In this document: positions 17,904-29,487 of the stretch, in pieces
Numbering within the stretch: position 1 is the stretch's first letter
How the letters are laid out: the number at the start of each line of letters is the position of its first letter
Source of the DNA: Candidatus Bathyarchaeota archaeon
GTDB taxonomy: Archaea; Thermoproteota; Bathyarchaeia; Bathyarchaeales; Bathycorpusculaceae
Direction of reading: 5' to 3'
Length of the DNA stretch: 64,000 nucleotides
NCBI GenBank assembly: GCA_963806535.1
Contig: CAWDYC010000004.1
Location: 288,001 to 352,000 of the forward strand
Translations under genes and position numbers: made by a program
The notes under the pieces: generated by a model
Database searches by the model: none
What the model saw: only the letters and a program-made list of their open reading frames with translations
What the model was told of the DNA's origin: nothing

Positions 17904-18027
17904 GCAGTCCAGCAGGCTATTAGGCGATGAAACGTCACTGCTTCATCGTTTATTGTTAAACTTAAATGGCATTTAGCTTTAGCCATACTTTTGTTTAATT
18001 ATAGTTTTATCTTTGTAAACGACATGT

Positions 18028-18066
18028 TTGACTATTAGTCAAGAAATCTTTACTAAAAATAGTAAA
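18028..18066. promoter_or_regulatory. Two related palindromes TTGACTA-T-TAGTCAA and TTTACTA-AAAA-TAGTAAA (candidate operators)
   Basis: Perfect 7-bp inverted repeats upstream of the beta-propeller gene. Confidence 0.45.
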
Positions 18067-18126
18067 CAATCCTTGACGAGAACCCTTTTATCACAACCAA
18101 GATTTAGCAGCTATTGGTGAAAACGG

Positions 18127-19693
18127 GTGAAACTTAAGAGCGATATAATCGTTTTTGCTGTTTTGGCGCTGCTACTTTCTTGTTCTTTATCTTCAGGAAT
18201 TTCTCTAGGAACAGTGAAAGGCGCTACTCAAAACAACAATTTGCAGTCCAATAACGGTGCAATATCGCTGACTAATGGATCCGCTCCGGATGATTGGCCA
18301 ATGTTTCGTCATGACCTGCAGAATACAGGGGCTTCTACGTCAACACCCCCAATCAACAAATTGCTATGGCAATTTTCCACTGGTGATTTAATTTATTCAT
18401 CTCCTGTAGTCGCAAACGGTGTTGTTTACATCGGGTCAAACAATAGCTACTTTTATGCTCTAAATGCTTCGAGTGGTTCTTTAATTTGGCAAAGTTACGT
18501 GGGCAGTAATGTTGAATCATCTGCTGCTGTTGTTGATAATATTGTTTACGTTGGAATCTTATGGAACGGACACAATGGTTACGTGGATGCTTTGAATGCC
18601 ACAACTGGCTCGATAATTTGGCGATTTGCAACAAATAGCGGTATCGAGTCATCTCCCGCTGTAGTCGACGGTGTTGTTTACGTTGGTTCATACAACGGCT
18701 ATATTTACGCGCTAAATGCGACCACTGGTTTGTTAAGATGGTCGTTCCTTACTGGCGGCTCAACATATTCTTCTCCTGCAATCGTAAATGGCATTGTATA
18801 CGTAGGTTCAATCGACGGCAGAGTTTACGCCTTGAACGCAAATAACGGAGCGCAAATTTGGTACTTTCAAACAGGAAATCCTGTCTATTCATCTCCAACG
18901 ATTGTAAACAACGTCGTGTACGTTAACTCAGATAACGGAACAGTATATGCTTTGAATGCAAATGATGGCTCGAAAATTTGGCAAGCAACTATAGGCGTAG
19001 GTGACCATGCGGACGATTCGCCCGCTGTTGCTGGCGGCATTGTATACTTTGGCGCACGCAACGGCTATTATGCCTTCAACGTTACTGATGGATCGCAGAT
19101 TTGGTTCTTTACCTCGCCTTATTCGTCGCGTCAATTCACTGGCTACGTATATTCGTCCCCTGCAGTTGCGGGCAATGTTGTATATTATGGGTCATTTGAT
19201 GGCTACGTTTTCGCTTTAGATGCTTTCAATGGTTCCATGATCTGGTCATATCGTACTGGAGGATATCTTGTTTTCGTCACCTGCAGTTGTCAACGGCATT
19301 GTTTACATAGGCTCATTTGACGGAAAAGTTTATGCTTTGGGGAATTGGGCTTCGCTATTTCAAACGTCGATTCCGACCCCAACTCCTACTCCTCAAGCAA
19401 CCGCAACTCCCACAACAACTCCGACCCCAACGCTCACACCAACAGCAATACTTGTTCTCGCTAACACTTCTAAACCAATCGCAACTCCAATAATCACACA
19501 AATGCCTCAGCTCTCCCCGACGCCCATTCAAGATCCAATTCCAATAGCCACATCTGAACCGAAAGGAGAACTCATGCTCGGTGTTACTCAAAACGAAAGC
19601 GACTTCACGAGTTGGATAATATTGGGAGGAATTATCGGAACTGCTGTGGTAGCGCTGATATTCTTTATGCTAGTTTTCAGAAGAAGACCGTAA
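18127..19693 (+). CDS. Secreted PQQ-like/BamB-type beta-propeller protein with Pro/Thr linker and C-terminal TM anchor (one frameshift near 19270)
   Basis: Signal peptide, DWPMFRHD, repeated SSPAVxxGxVYxGS..YALNAxxGxxxW, PTPTP linker, TM followed by RRRP. Confidence 0.88.
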
Positions 19694-25922: not shown

Positions 25923-26721
25923 TTGCAACAATCAAACAAACTCTCGGTGCTGACCTCTACCAACATTAGCGGAAGCTGCAACGCTTGATTGAGAAATCTT
26001 TTGTCCAAAGAAGAACTCTCATCGTTGCAGGCACATGCCACGTGCATTACGTTGGCAGAGCAAGCTCAACTCTTGAACTTGGCGAACGCATCCTAATCAT
26101 CAAGTCTGACGGGTCGCTTCTTGTTCACCGCCCAGTCGGCTATGAACCAGTCAATTGGCAACCTGCAGGCAGCGTTTTCCATGTCCAAGTCAAAGACGAA
26201 GAGCTGGAGGTTCATGGAATTCGGCAAAAGCCACATGAAAGCGTTCGCGTCACATTCGAAAACATCTATATGGTCTCTGCCCTCAACTTGTCAGATTCAG
26301 GAGATTTTCTTTTACACGCAAGCGAAGACGACATGCATCGAGCCATTCTTCTTAAACCTGAACTTCTCGAAGAAGGCTTCAAACCGATTAGCTGGGAGAA
26401 AAAAGTTGAGCCCGGCTTCGTAGACATTTATGGCGAAGACAAAAACGGCAAACTCGTCATTGTTGAAGTTAAACGAAAAACTGCTTCAAAAGAGGCTGCG
26501 TCTGCAATTGGCAAAGTATATTGAACCTATCAAAGCCAAAGTTAACCGAGAAGTCCGTGCTGTGCTGGTTGCCCCTAGCCTTGCTAAAGATGTTCAGAGA
26601 CTGCTGGTTACACTTGGGCTTGGAGTTTAAGGCGCTTGACCCGAAAACCTGTGCTGAAGTTCTTAAGAAAACTGAAAACTCAAAGCTGGAGTCATTCTTC
26701 AAAGAAAAAGACTCGATTTAG
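25923..26721 (+). CDS. nucS: Mismatch-specific endonuclease NucS/EndoMS (frameshifted)
   Basis: CHVHYVGRASS, IKSDGSLLVH, EPVNWQP, GFVDIYGED..IVEVKR. Confidence 0.92.
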
Positions 26722-26733
26722 ATAAATTTTCAT

Positions 26734-27190
26734 TTAGGATTTTTGAGGTTTGCGGTTTGTTCGCCAAGTCAAAGCGCTAAAAATTGAAAGTATCACAAGA
26801 AGAACAGCAACCCCAATTTTGAGGATTGTAAACGCTTGAATTGTGGAAACAAGTAAGAATTGCAGCTGGAAAGGGACCGATTAGAATATAGAAGAAGATG
26901 GCTGTAGGTAATTTGTAGTTATATTTGTAGTCTTTGAGGCTGCGTTTCCCAAAGTACAATGCTGCTAATCTGCCTAAGCCAAAGGTGCATTTTTTGCAGT
27001 TGTAGCATGGTCGCAAGCAGCCCAAAAACTTCAGCACACCATAAATGGCAATGAGCGCAACCAAAAGAAACACCACTCCAGCTGCCAGATTGATGAGCAG
27101 GAAAGCTACAGTGTCTAATGCAATCCAAAAGGCAAGAGCAAGGTTGCCGATTATTGTGAATTTTTTTGGAAATTCTATGGTTTCGCTGAT
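26734..27190 (-). CDS. Small membrane protein with Cys cluster (frameshifted; ends approximate)
   Basis: Hydrophobic segments and CLRPCYNCKKCTFG. Confidence 0.55.
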
Positions 27191-27281
27191 TTTCTCTCTT
27201 CCTGTCAGGTCTTATTGTTTGAAGAAGGATAAGAAGTTTCAAAGTAAATCCACAAGAACAGTACCAAGTCAACAATTCGTT

Positions 27282-27426
27282 AGAAGAACAACACAGTTGG
27301 TGTTAGCACTGGGTGTTGTTCTTCTTTGATAGAAGAAGAAGGACGGCTGGAAATAGCACCGTCCTACTTCTTCTCTGCTTCAGAAAGAAGAAGAAACCTG
27401 ATAGGGGCACACTTCTTCTTCTTTTG
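27282..27426 (-). ncRNA. Candidate structured ncRNA of three tandem hairpins
   Basis: Stems 27282-27325, 27331-27374, ~27384-27424; the first two share loop GCUA-NNN-CCA and differ by compensatory changes. Confidence 0.6.
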
Positions 27427-27622
27427 GTGGCTTAATCAGAGATGTTACAAATCGACTGCTAAGGAATAGCAATTGTTTCCTAAGAAAATAAGTTCATGAA
27501 CACTTTGAAAACAAACTAAACTGACTTAAATATAGTATCTTAACATGTAAACTTTCGATTTAATTTCTGGCGAAAAAAGAAAAAAAATTCGCGAATTACA
27601 AAAATTAAAGAGAAACAAAAAA

Positions 27623-28193
27623 TTATTCTTTTGGTTTTTCGTTATGATTTTCTGGCACAAAAACGGCTGCGGCAACAGTTGTTGTCCATAAACCATTTTT
27701 GTCGCCTGCTGCTGATTGAGTGATGTTAGCTGTTTTTATGATTAGCCCCGTAGTTTTGAAGAGTTGTTTGCGTTCATCCCAAGCTGTTTCTGGGTCAAAT
27801 TGAATACCCATCGTTGTTGCTAGCATTGTTGCTGCTAAATCTTCTGCGTAGTCACCTGCAATTTCGTCTGTTTGCCCAAATGAGTGATGTTCTGAGAGGT
27901 AGCCGTACTGGTTTTTGCCTGAAGGGATAGCAACGCCTATTGATGATGCAACAAGCCTATGTGGTTCATTAGTGGCGTTTCGTGCGATGACAACAAAGGT
28001 GATTTCGCCAGGCTGCACCATTTTCAAGCCTTTCTCTCGTGGAAGCTGCTCGCATCCGGGAGGAACAATGCTTGAAACGCTAACCAGGTTGCACATTTGT
28101 ATGCCTGCGTCTCTGAGGGCTAATTCAAATGATTGGAGTTGCTCTTTATGTTTGCCAACTCCTTTAGTGAAAAAGAAAGTATTTTGGTATCAT
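27623..28193 (-). CDS. pdaD: Pyruvoyl-dependent arginine decarboxylase (frameshift near start)
   Basis: [23 protein letters not shown] cleavage site, [18 protein letters not shown]. Confidence 0.92.
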
Positions 28194-28295: not shown

Positions 28296-29487
28296 TTGCC
28301 ATCACATCAAAGCGTGTTCAAAGACGAAGGCAAGCTTGACATAAACTACATTCCGCAGCAGCTGCCTCACAGAGAAAAAGAACATCGCCTGCTAATGGAG
28401 TTCTTCAGCTTCATTACTCGCTACCCAGAGCGGATGTCTCAACGCGTTATCATAACTGGCGATGTAGGCACAGGAAAAACAGTTCTTGACCCAACATTTC
28501 GGAGCCAACATCACATCAGAAGCTAACAAACGAGCCATAAAATTTCGTTATGTGCATGTTAACTGCCGAGAGTATCGAGGTAGTCTCCAGCCGATTTTGC
28601 ATCATGCTGTAACCGTTTTCCGTCCAAAGTATCCAGCACGTGGCTATTCTGCAGACGAAGTTCTATCAACATTAATGCAGGTTCTAGATGAAGAAAACGC
28701 TTTCATGGTGTTGACCCTTGACGAGTTTGATAGTCTGATAGAAAATGAAGGTTCGGATGCTGTTTACAAACTGACGCGCCTGCAGGAAATGCGCCAAGGC
28801 AAACCTCAAAGGTTGTCATTTATTTTTATTATGCGTGATTTGAAATCGCTTGAAAAGTTGGATGATAGCGCACGAAGCACTCTTCAACGTAGCATTATAC
28901 GTTTAGAGCGTTATGGCAAACCTCAGCTTGTTGACATCTTGAACCAGCGTGTTTCTATGGCTTTTGAATTGGGAGCAGTTGAGGAAGATGTTGTTGATTT
29001 GATTGCTGAGTTGGCTTTCAGTGAGACGGGAAATGCCCGTTTTGGAATTGAGTTGTTGTGGCGCTCTGGGAAATATGCTGATGCCGAACAAGTTGGAATG
29101 GTTGGAGCTGAATGTGTTCGCTTGGCAGTATCCAACATTGTTCCGGGCGTTCGACGTAGTGAGTTAGCGGGGCTTGCTTTGCATGAAAAAATGTTTTTGC
29201 TTGCAGTAGCCCGTTATTTCAAAGAAAATGAAGAAGCATACGCTTTATTGTCTGAAATTGAAAAAACCTACGCAGTCATCTGCGAAGAAATGGATGAGCA
29301 GCCCAACAGCCACACGCAAATATATAATTATGCTCAGTTTCTTTCTTCAATGAAAATTTTGAAGCTAGAGGTTGCAAGTGAAGCTACAAGAGGTAGGTCT
29401 ACAAGGGTTTCTCTGCTTTCGATTCCGGCGAATGAGTTGGAAAAAGAATTAAGCGCTTCGTTGGAACAGGAAAAAAGAATCAGGTGA
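28296..29487 (+). CDS. cdc6: Orc1/Cdc6 family AAA+ initiator (frameshift near 28490)
   Basis: LDINYIPQQLPHRE, GDVGTGKT, YVHVNC, LDEFD, GNARFGIELL, C-terminal WH. Confidence 0.9.

What the first reader, a model, noticed from the sequence alone, without database searches (positions are those of the whole stretch)
27282..27426. Intergenic ~49-nt-periodic hairpin array with compensatory changes and a shared GCUA-NNN-CCA loop
Seen: unit 1 AGAAGAACAACA-CAGT-TGGTGTTAGC-ACTG-GG-TGTTGTTCTTCT and unit 2 AGAAGAAGAAGGA-CGGC-TGGAAATAGC-ACCG-TCCTACTTCTTCT are both 44 nt and start 49 nt apart. Stem sequences differ while pairing is kept, and the 10-nt loop is identical except for a central triplet (ACA versus UUU on the minus strand). 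A third AAAGAAGAAGAA/TTCTTCTTCTTT hairpin follows with a different loop. A G-U pair versus a C-A mismatch, and a TATTTAAG near 27525-27532, favour a minus-strand transcript of roughly 240 nt. I see no SRP, RNase P, tRNA or CRISPR hallmarks. Inference: a novel multi-hairpin RNA such as a protein sponge, processed guide or antitoxin array, or triplet-displaying tRNA mimic; or a leader for the downstream Cys-rich membrane gene.
Basis: partly seen in the sequence, partly recalled or inferred. Interest (0 to 1): 0.75.

Follow-up and report, generated by a model that had tools for sequence, protein, structure and literature searches.

The report
Dispersed three-hairpin repeat in Bathyarchaeia
The three hairpins are real, but they are one copy of a short palindromic repeat scattered about twenty times between genes in this archaeal genome and its relatives, so this is repeat DNA and not a one-off RNA gene or gene leader.

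Summary
Window 27282-27425 carries three adjacent hairpins (A 27282-27325, B 27331-27374, C 27384-27424). They are stable on either strand and match no Rfam family.

The interpretation mostly does not hold. The 144-bp block is one of 19 loci in this 2.95-Mb genome (9 full-length, 84-91% identical). The others hold whole-module subsets such as AB, BC or C. Nearly all are intergenic, in both orientations, beside unrelated genes.

- A covariance model finds 8-22 copies in about eight other species of the same Bathyarchaeia genus.
- It finds two-hairpin relatives in many more species of the genus, and none in 135 genomes from 75 other genera.
- No positioned promoter and no target-site duplication were found.
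- No Y1 transposase tracks the repeat, and no RNA sequencing data exist.
- The orthologous pdaD spacer carries the element in two species and lacks it in five.
- Eight loci are shared with other species, yet copies resemble their genome-mates more than their orthologues (concerted evolution).

Best reading: a new archaeal family of interspersed, modular extragenic palindromes, like REP/BIME, BOX or MITE elements. How it spread is unknown. Interest is moderate.

The parts
27279..27427 (+). One full-length copy (modules A-B-C) of the dispersed repeat family. '+' is the orientation of the family consensus, not a demonstrated transcript strand.
   Evidence: Covariance model R1 scores it 159.8 bits, E 6.7e-34, over model positions 1-150. 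It is 84-91% identical to 8 other full-length copies in the genome.
27282..27325 (+). Module A hairpin: a 13-bp perfect stem in this copy, with apical core GTTGGTGTTAGCACTGGG.
   Evidence: (I4). In the family the stem usually carries a C.C or C.T mismatch (60 of 76 copies). This copy has a 1-nt deletion that shifts the register and makes the stem perfect.
27331..27374 (+). Module B hairpin: (GAA)n/(TTC)n lower stem with one A.A mismatch, GGACGG/CCGTCC upper stem, and a loop sharing TGG...TAGCAC with module A.
   Evidence: (I2). The variable stem position is G-C 17, T-A 11, A.A 17 and A.C 10 among 70 copies.
27384..27424 (+). Module C hairpin: AAAGAAGAAGAA / TTCTTCTTCTTT stem with a 17-nt loop containing GGGGCAC.
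   Evidence: (I9). The module is conserved across the family.
27428..27622 (.). AT-rich spacer between the element and the pdaD stop codon. On the minus strand it carries T8 and T6 runs just after pdaD. It is not part of the repeat.
   Evidence: It is not shared by other copies. It is largely absent from the orthologous spacers. Reading the T runs as an archaeal terminator is my inference from general knowledge.
27623..28096 (-). pdaD (pyruvoyl-dependent arginine decarboxylase), the neighbour upstream on the minus strand.
   Evidence: Pfam PF01862, E 9e-43.
26734..27238 (-). Cys-rich membrane-protein gene, the neighbour downstream on the minus strand. Its reading frame is broken in this assembly.
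   Evidence: DNA homology with relatives spans 26734-27238 (query positions 1-505). The ORFs are split between two frames. Translating 26734-27190 meets a stop codon. No Pfam hit.

Best explanation
The array is one resident copy of a genus-restricted family of interspersed, modular extragenic palindromes. Each unit is about 145 bp and holds three stem-loops, A, B and C. Their arms are built from GAA/CAA repeats and their complement. A and B share the apical core TGGTGGTAGCACCG.

Shown: multicopy and intergenic placement, both orientations, restriction to one genus, and variants made of whole modules.

Inferred:
- The family once spread through the genome by an enzyme supplied in trans that recognises the hairpin or inverted-repeat DNA. 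That enzyme has not been identified.
- Many copies are now old and vertically inherited.
- Gene conversion or turnover keeps copies alike within each genome.
- Modules are gained and lost by slippage or recombination between the shared AGAAGAAG...CTTCTTCT arms. This would give the observed AB, BC, C, AC, CAB and BCA arrays.

At this locus the copy sits in the spacer between the likely pdaD terminator and the membrane-gene promoter. It has no locus-specific role. If read-through transcription occurs, either strand would fold into three stable hairpins. Any effect on the ends or stability of neighbouring transcripts would then be incidental, as is proposed for bacterial REP and BOX elements.
For: Copy number in this genome:
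- BLAST, nhmmer and the covariance model each find 19 loci, 9 of them full-length at 84-91% identity.
- The rest contain whole modules only.
- The hairpin arm motifs occur almost only inside these loci: 0, 2 and 6 stray matches out of 24, 23 and 60.

Placement:
- 17 of 19 loci overlap no ORF of 90 aa or more.
- The neighbouring genes are arranged in tandem at 9 loci, divergently at 6 and convergently at 4.
- In the tandem settings the element points with the genes 4 times and against them 5 times.
- The neighbours are functionally unrelated.

Distribution:
- The model matches 46 of 120 genomes of the genus, with high copy numbers in G081 (22), G121 (19), G115 (18), G056 (16), G044 (15), G009 (11) and G092 (8).
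- All 17 weaker-scoring loci I printed (one from each of 17 further genomes) hold related hairpins with the same arm sequences. Fifteen are two-hairpin A'-C' forms; the G129 and G045 loci hold three.
- It matches 0 of 135 genomes in 75 other genera of the class.
- The exact core occurs only in Bathyarchaeota MAG records.

This locus: the element is absent from 5 of 5 orthologous spacers examined first and present in G121 and G115.

Not a stand-alone gene: no positioned flanking signal in 61 copies and no Rfam family.

Structure is maintained: 91.4% of pair cells are paired against 88.0% in shuffles and 43-75% with slid partners. 33 of 47 pairs show at least one double change.

Vertical inheritance with homogenisation:
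- 8 loci of this genome have a copy at the orthologous place and in the same orientation in G013, G009, G081, G115 or G121.
- Orthologues are less alike (71-91%) than the mean paralogue (84-92%) in 10 of 10 comparisons.
- In 2 of 3 locus-by-genome quartets, copies from the same genome are 85-89% identical and copies at the same locus 75-81%.
- The tree clusters by genome: 32 label changes against 52.4 in shuffles, with 0 of 200 shuffles as low.
Against: - No mobilising enzyme was found. The three Y1 (IS200) transposase genes of this genome sit in identical 556-bp insertion sequences whose end hairpins are unrelated to the repeat.
- Y1_Tnp does not track the repeat. No match is listed for the repeat-rich G081, G092 and G009, and G115 and G044 are not among the 39 of 120 genomes with a match.
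- No target-site duplication of 2-9 bp exceeds the shuffled-partner control in 49 full-length copies.
- No clean filled-versus-empty junction could be recovered, because intergenic DNA is too diverged between species. Mobility is therefore inferred only from the patchy distribution.
- Retention at orthologous loci could equally reflect a host function. The element keeps more matches per unit length than its 100-nt flanks (a rough measure).
- The tree is weakly resolved: 3 of 74 inner branches are starred.
- The alignments used for the pair counts were fitted to the model's structure.
- Gene calls are crude ORF calls of my own.
Confidence: 0.62

Rival explanations
1. The copies are a multicopy family of structured small RNA genes or RNA modules, for example protein-binding hairpins. 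The RNA works in trans or on neighbouring transcripts, and gene conversion keeps the copies uniform, as in other multigene RNA families.
For: - Very stable hairpins.
- Pairing is maintained above the controls, with some double changes.
- The apical core is conserved between modules A and B and across species.
- Copies are retained at orthologous loci and homogenised within genomes.
- There is an excess of plus-strand G-T wobbles, 284 to 106.
Against: - No positioned promoter-like signal on either flank of 61 copies.
- Orientation is unrelated to the neighbouring genes.
- In the wider family the stems keep their sequence while the loops vary freely. Most structured RNAs show the reverse.
- The wobble asymmetry is biased by the plus-strand model and reverses in the upper stem of module B.
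- No Rfam relative.
- At this locus, T8 and T6 runs after pdaD probably end that transcript before it reaches the element (my inference).
- Expression could not be tested.
Confidence: 0.15
2. The copies are host DNA sites. A DNA-binding protein (nucleoid-associated, chromosome-organising or regulatory) would recognise either cruciform-prone palindromes or the GGTG-N4-CACC apex.
For: - Function would be independent of orientation, which fits the random orientation.
- About 20 sites are spread over all large contigs.
- Positions are conserved across species, with a species-specific sequence. This would fit co-evolution with a binding protein.
- 15 of 19 loci lie upstream of at least one gene.
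Against: - The neighbouring genes share no function.
- Most species of the genus lack the three-hairpin form.
- The apical motif is not kept in the two-hairpin relatives.
- 4 of 19 loci lie between convergent genes.
- Neighbouring copies on a contig are not consistently co-oriented: about 23 same against 18 different, my tally.
- No candidate protein is known.
Confidence: 0.13
3. The array is a locus-specific cis-regulatory leader or 3' element of the Cys-rich membrane gene or of pdaD.
For: The element lies 44-92 nt upstream of the membrane gene and 195 nt downstream of pdaD on the minus strand.
Against: - The same element lies beside 18 other unrelated gene pairs.
- Five species keep pdaD and the membrane gene without it.
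- G121 has the element but no membrane gene there.
Confidence: 0.03

Closest known systems
REP / BIME elements and REPIN-RAYT systems of bacteria
   Same: - Short extragenic palindromes, single or in mosaic arrays.
- Species-specific sequence.
- Persistence by vertical inheritance. The abstracts of 10.1101/2022.05.22.493013 and 10.1101/2021.07.10.451892, seen in the listing, say REPINs persist for millions of years.
- No target-site duplication.
- I recall, from a paper I did not see, that E. coli and Salmonella palindromic units are species-specific even in homologous spacers. That would parallel.
   Different: - No RAYT or Y1 partner.
- No conserved GTAG or CGTC tag at the foot of the hairpin. 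GTAG precedes module A in about 15 of 61 copies and otherwise sits in the apical loop.
- About 20 copies per genome, not hundreds.
- Hairpins lie in direct tandem order, not as inverted pairs.
- AT-rich GAA/TTC stems in place of GC-rich ones.
- The host is an archaeon. [quoted passage not shown]
BOX elements of Streptococcus pneumoniae (boxA-boxB-boxC)
   Same: - Modular make-up, with variants that differ by whole modules.
- Strong predicted hairpins.
- Intergenic placement.
- No known transposase.
BOX is mentioned in passages of PMC10969869. The module details are recalled.
   Different: - Unrelated sequence.
- Here each module is its own hairpin.
- The host is an archaeon.
- Copy number is lower.
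Prokaryotic MITEs, including the archaeal Sulfolobus, Halobacterium and Haloquadratum elements
   Same: - Size within the 50-800 bp range.
- Multicopy and intergenic.
- Non-coding.
- Patchy among related genomes.
- Outer arms form an imperfect terminal inverted repeat.
Definitions come from passages of PMC11602168 and PMC10969869.
   Different: - No target-site duplication.
- No parent insertion sequence with matching ends in this genome.
- The interior is itself three hairpins.
- Many copies sit at orthologous sites across species.
IS200/IS605-derived palindrome-associated elements (PATE). The name is recalled; PMC3119063 was seen only in the listing.
   Same: Hairpin-bearing and non-coding, with no duplication of the target.
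   Different: The left-end and right-end hairpins of the only IS200 in this genome (CCTGCCGC...GCGGCAGG and CTCGCCTC...GAGGCGAG) are unrelated to the repeat.

Membership tests
MITE | Small (50-800 bp), non-coding, multicopy | tested here: met
   About 145 bp. 19 loci in this genome. Indels that are not multiples of three occur between copies.
MITE | Terminal inverted repeats of at least 10-15 bp | tested here: inconclusive
   The outer arms, AGAAGAACAAC and the complement of CTTCTTCTTCT, match at 10 of 11 positions in this copy and about 8 of 11 in the family consensus. This follows simply from every module starting with AGAA.. and ending with ..TTCT.
MITE | Target-site duplication of 2-10 bp | tested here: not met
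   In 49 full-length copies, with k from 2 to 9 and offsets allowed, the best counts (14, 5, 2, 2, 1, 1, 0, 0) do not exceed the shuffled-partner maxima.
MITE | Parent autonomous insertion sequence with the same ends | tested here: not met
   There are no further matches to the element or its arms outside the 19 loci. The IS200 ends are unrelated. Only this genome was searched in full.
REP / REPIN | Associated RAYT (Y1 HUH transposase), usually single-copy and flanked by the repeats | tested here: not met
   The PF01797 hits are three identical IS200 copies, not flanked by the repeat. No PF01797 match is listed in G081, G092 or G009, and G115 and G044 are not among the 39 of 120 genomes with a match.
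REP / REPIN | GTAG (or CGTC) tetranucleotide at one end of the palindrome | tested here: not met
   The base positions just 5' of module A are variable (G36/A18, then A37/T15/G9 of 61), so GTAG is present in about a quarter of copies. GTAG does occur in the apical loop of modules A and B.
REP / REPIN | Extragenic, palindromic, vertically persistent population | tested here: met
Structured RNA gene family (any Rfam family, tRNA, CRISPR) | Match to a curated covariance model, tRNA call, or repeat-spacer architecture | tested here: not met
   Rfam gathering search: none. E-value search: only chance-level hits. ARAGORN: none. The linkers between hairpins are 5-9 nt, not spacers.
Structured RNA gene family | Own promoter at a fixed distance, and a discrete transcript | tested here: inconclusive
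   No positioned flank signal. An internal promoter and expression could not be tested.

The most novel reading that the evidence does not exclude
This is the first archaeal counterpart of a REPIN/BIME-type population. It would be a vertically inherited set of hairpin replicators, or host-recruited hairpin sites, that stays at orthologous loci for longer than a speciation interval. It would be homogenised within each genome and maintained by a partner that is not a Y1/RAYT transposase. That partner could be an unknown hairpin-specific enzyme or binding protein that co-evolves with the species-specific B and C loops.
Probability: 0.15. Interest if true: 0.6.

Novelty: new member of a known kind. 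Interest (0 to 1): 0.35.

Why it matters
Interspersed palindromic repeats are well studied in bacteria and little studied in archaea. [quoted passage not shown] My searches found no paper on repeats of this kind in Bathyarchaeia.

This family gives a defined covariance model and about 150 copies across nine species. They show three features together: conserved positions, species-specific sequence, and no recognisable transposase. That makes it a usable test case for how such repeats persist, whether by gene conversion, by slow duplication or by host use.

In practice it warns annotators that 'novel hairpin RNAs' in these MAGs may be repeat copies. The repeats may also contribute to breaks in assemblies.

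For the finding as submitted, the result is deflationary. It is not a unique regulatory RNA.

Tried and rejected
- Replication origin idea. An Orc1/Cdc6 gene lies 0.9 kb away. However, the element is a 19-locus repeat, the AT-rich spacer is not conserved, and composition shows nothing striking. I did not pursue it further.
- IS200/Y1 transposase as mobiliser: rejected.
- TnpB: only two weak or broken PF07282 matches, not near any copy.
- REPtron-like gene between nearby copies. The interval C6:43.5-46.7 kb holds a 1.6-kb ORF-free stretch and no transposase. The interval C7:185.5-186.1 kb holds a tRNA gene.
- Target-site duplication: none.
- Exact empty sites from other species: the alignments are too diverged to place junctions.
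- Orientation bias along contigs, as a possible replication-linked signal. One contig of G115 and one of G056 looked co-oriented. Over all genomes, adjacent copies are about 23 same against 18 different (my hand tally). Not pursued.
- Regulon idea: the neighbours are unrelated.
- Viral origin: 0 exact matches to a 32-nt core in viral contigs. The 12 metagenome contigs holding the core were not analysed further.
- Coding potential of the small ORFs across the array: rejected because copies differ by indels that are not multiples of three.
- tRNA-like reading of CAGTTGGTGGTAGCAC: no support from ARAGORN or Rfam.
- Paper supplements were not opened. The MITE census of PMC11602168 lists its sequences only in supplements, so I cannot say whether this family is in that catalogue.
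- The look-up of encoding contigs was not called because it is stated to be closed.

Full report
OBSERVATION. There are two 44-nt units, at 27282-27325 and 27331-27374, whose starts are 49 nt apart, and a third hairpin at 27384-27424. The repeat finder lists the three arm pairs: 13 nt at 100%, 16 nt at 94% and 12 nt at 100%. It also lists direct repeats spaced 49-51 nt apart. Folded as RNA, 27270-27440 forms three hairpins on either strand, with z-scores of -7.0 (minus) and -5.9 (plus), and 0 of 200 shuffles fold as well. Each hairpin alone is also stable as single-stranded DNA on both strands, with z from -4.1 to -6.4. Rfam has nothing at gathering score here, and the relaxed search gives only chance-level hits. 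ARAGORN finds no tRNA.

THE KEY FACT: IT IS A DISPERSED REPEAT. Searching the element against its own genome gives near-full-length matches on six contigs at 84-91% identity. The genome (G000) is 2.95 Mb in 12 contigs, and the window is C4:288001-352000. An nhmmer profile finds 19 loci with E of 5e-8 or better, plus a few weak single-module matches. The homology ends exactly at the outer arms of hairpins A and C, at 27282 and 27425. Nine loci are full-length A-B-C. The others are AB (5-6 loci), BC (2) or C alone (2). In other genomes I also saw A-C, C-A-B and B-C-A arrangements. The family is therefore modular, and its variants differ by whole hairpins. I attribute this to slippage or recombination between the shared AGAAGAAG...CTTCTTCT arms, which is an inference. 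The arm motifs occur almost nowhere else in the genome.

WHERE THE COPIES LIE. I used my own crude ORF calls: ORFs of 90 aa or more, chosen longest-first without overlap. By these calls, 17 of 19 loci overlap no ORF. The two exceptions are short single-module matches. The neighbouring genes are in tandem at 9 loci, divergent at 6 and convergent at 4. In the tandem settings the element points with the genes 4 times and against them 5 times. I ran 17 flanking or nearby ORFs through Pfam, taken from 8 of the 19 loci. They include a methyltransferase, a CxxCxxCC protein, BacA, catalase, an ABC ATPase, a nitroreductase, QueC, a nucleoside phosphorylase, a DHH phosphoesterase, pdaD and NucS. These share no common function. 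In 61 copies from nine genomes, no flank position within 55 nt on either side exceeds 0.44 bits.

TAXONOMIC SPREAD.
- BLAST found the element in 3 of 24 genus relatives and in 0 of 16 genomes from other families of the order.
- Covariance model R1, built from the nine full copies, matches 46 of 120 genomes of the genus at E of 1e-3 or better. High counts are in G081 (22), G000 (20), G121 (19), G115 (18), G056 (16), G044 (15), G009 (11) and G092 (8). At most 25 candidates per genome were scored.
- A re-run on five genomes that scored 150 candidates, at E of 1e-6 or better, gave 11-17 copies each.
- I printed one weaker-scoring locus from each of 17 other genomes. All 17 carry related hairpins with the same arm sequences. 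Fifteen are two-hairpin A'-C' forms with different loops, and in these A' has a perfect AGAACAACAACA / TGTTGTTGTTCT stem. The loci from G129 and G045 hold three hairpins.
- In a sample of the class (141 genomes, 76 genera) only G000 and G013 match, so 0 of 135 genomes outside the genus do.
- An exact 25-nt core occurs in 13 stretches of the species-representative collection, all in 'Candidatus Bathyarchaeota archaeon' MAG records from four assemblies.
- The core occurs in 0 viral contigs and in 12 metagenome contigs that I did not study further.

ANATOMY OF THE FAMILY (77 copies).
- Module A is the most conserved: AGAACAACAACAGTTGGTGGTAGCACCGGGTGTTGTTCTTCT. Its lower stem carries a fixed C.C mismatch in 52 of 76 copies and C.T in 8. 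It is Watson-Crick paired in only 6 of 76. The window's copy is atypical. A 1-nt deletion and an AGA flank shift the register and give a perfect 13-bp stem.
- Module B has a conserved (GAA)n/(TTC)n lower stem. One stem position is hypervariable: G-C 17, T-A 11, A-T 2, A.A 17, A.C 10, G.T 5 and others 8, of 70. The upper part is highly variable and ends in a conserved TAGCACCG(C)G. In many copies the B apex equals the A apex, TGGTGGTAGCACCG.
- Module C is AAAGAAGAAGAA...GGGGCACAC...TTCTTCTTCT.
- On 75 copies, 91.4% of pair cells are standard pairs, against 88.0% in shuffles and 43-75% with partners slid by 1-3 columns. 33 of 47 pairs show at least one double change, and all five measures exceed 500 of 500 shuffles.
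- Two caveats apply to these counts. The alignment was fitted to the model, and the copies are related.
- In the wider family the stems keep their sequence while the loops change. That pattern fits recognition of the arm sequences, or of the DNA hairpin, better than a classical structured RNA.

WHICH STRAND. Family-wide, G-T and T-G cells (plus-strand wobbles) number 284, and A-C and C-A cells (minus-strand wobbles) number 106. In the lower stems alone, by my sum from the table, the counts are 37:5 in module A, 19:13 in B and 14:14 in C. In the upper stem of B the bias reverses, with A-C at 20 and 22 cells. The model was built on the plus strand, which inflates its wobbles. I conclude that no strand is established.

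THIS LOCUS IN RELATIVES. The pdaD and membrane-gene flanks are found in 57 of 60 sampled genus members. In the five syntenic spacers I aligned (G013, G053, G056, G044, G004), the spacer is 37-292 bp and holds no element. In G121 the element lies in the same orientation next to pdaD, but the membrane gene is missing and the NucS gene end abuts the element. In G115 the element lies next to the membrane-gene orthologue. G121 and G115 share about 45 nt of flank with each other and, weakly, with G000. The element is therefore not tied to either neighbour. On the minus strand, T8 and T6 runs follow the pdaD stop codon. From general knowledge of archaeal termination at oligo-T, I infer that the pdaD transcript mostly ends before the element.

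OLD COPIES, HOMOGENISED WITHIN GENOMES. I mapped the flanks of 49 fetched loci from other genomes onto G000. Four pairs of these are duplicates, and nhmmer saw no element in five. Ten places, in G013 (2), G009 (1), G115 (2), G081 (3) and G121 (2), flank eight of G000's own copies, always in the same orientation. Others map to G000 spacers that have no copy, for example L017 (48 bp between the flank matches) and L144 (73 bp). Yet the orthologous copies are 71-91% identical, while each G000 copy averages 84-92% to its paralogues. The orthologue is the lower figure in 10 of 10 comparisons.

Three locus-by-genome quartets were computed:
- G000/G115 at our locus and C5_27: same genome 88.4 and 89.3; same locus 80.5 and 78.9; neither 80.7 and 76.8.
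- G000/G121 at our locus and C6_55: same genome 88.4 and 85.4; same locus 75.3 and 74.8.
- G000/G081: the difference is small, 78.4 and 83.2 against 77.7 and 78.6.

The B loop shows this directly. GGCTGGAAATAGC occurs at six G000 loci, and AAATGGAATTAGC occurs at both G115 orthologues. A maximum-likelihood tree of 77 copies clusters by genome, with 32 label changes against a shuffled mean of 52.4 and 0 of 200 shuffles as low. Only 3 of 74 inner branches are well supported. I read this as concerted evolution, by gene conversion or by turnover at resident sites. Repeated site-specific reinsertion cannot be excluded.

HOW IT SPREAD: UNKNOWN.
- No 2-9 bp target-site duplication rises above a shuffled-partner control in 49 full copies.
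- The only Y1 (IS200-type) transposase genes in G000 lie in three identical 556-bp elements whose end hairpins are unrelated to the repeat.
- Y1_Tnp is found in 39 of 120 genus genomes and does not track the repeat. It is not found in G081, G092 or G009, and G115 and G044 are not among the 39 genomes with a match.
- TnpB-like matches are two, both weak or broken.
- Interspecies alignments are too diverged to show clean junctions.

COMPARISON WITH KNOWN KINDS. The family behaves like bacterial REP/BIME or REPIN populations and like pneumococcal BOX elements. It is extragenic, palindromic, mosaic or modular, species-specific and long-lived. It fails the defining tests for REP/REPIN: there is no RAYT and no terminal GTAG tag. 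It also fails those for a MITE in the strict sense: there is no target-site duplication and no parent insertion sequence. The definitions come from passages of PMC3733652, PMC10969869 and PMC11602168. [quoted passage not shown] My literature searches returned nothing on such repeats in Bathyarchaeia. The supplementary catalogues were not available to me.

VERDICT. The hairpin array is real and has not been described, but it is a copy of an interspersed palindromic repeat family. It is not a unique RNA gene, a tRNA mimic or a leader. Its mechanism of spread and any host role remain open.

Noticed in passing
window 25985-26721, 26734-27238, 28296-29487: Three neighbouring genes each appear split between reading frames. 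They are NucS (PF21003 plus a partial PF01939), the Cys-rich membrane gene, and Orc1/Cdc6 (a Walker-A N-terminus in 28296-28526, and the lid and winged-helix domains in 28486-29487). This suggests indel errors in the assembly or real pseudogenes.
   Followed up: partly
G000 C4:112472-113027, C3:~355790-356350, C8:~17940-18500: Three virtually identical copies (99.5-100%) of a 556-bp IS200-type element. Each encodes a 144-aa Y1 transposase and has GC-rich left-end and right-end hairpins unrelated to the repeat. One copy lies about 600 bp from repeat copy C4:111781-111879, probably by chance.
   Followed up: yes
L060-L077 (other species of the genus), around positions 1485-1650 of each locus: A wider set of two-hairpin elements: A' with a perfect AGAACAACAACA stem and a free loop, then a linker, then a C-like (GAA)n hairpin. 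They occur in 15 of the 17 weaker-scoring genomes I printed (G129 and G045 hold three-hairpin forms). This suggests the three-hairpin form is one branch of a genus-wide superfamily.
   Followed up: partly
G000 C6:44740-46335 (L172:1740-3336): A 1.6-kb stretch with no ORF of 70 aa or more and no Rfam match, lying between two partial repeat copies (C6:43420-43508 and C6:46738-46834).
   Followed up: partly
G000 C7:185871-185943 (L173:872-944, minus strand): A tRNA gene sits between an A-only fragment (C7:185454-185502) and a BC copy (C7:186068-186182) that lie in opposite orientations.
   Followed up: no
window 27428-27622: An AT-rich (about 75% AT) spacer with A/T homopolymer runs next to the pdaD stop codon. 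It is absent or much shorter in the orthologous spacers of G013, G053, G121 and others. It lies 0.7 kb from the Orc1/Cdc6 gene, so an origin-related role was considered but not supported.
   Followed up: partly
G121 locus L141:4050-4600: In G121 the Cys-rich membrane gene is missing between NucS and pdaD while the repeat copy remains. Gene content around this spacer is fluid within the genus.
   Followed up: partly
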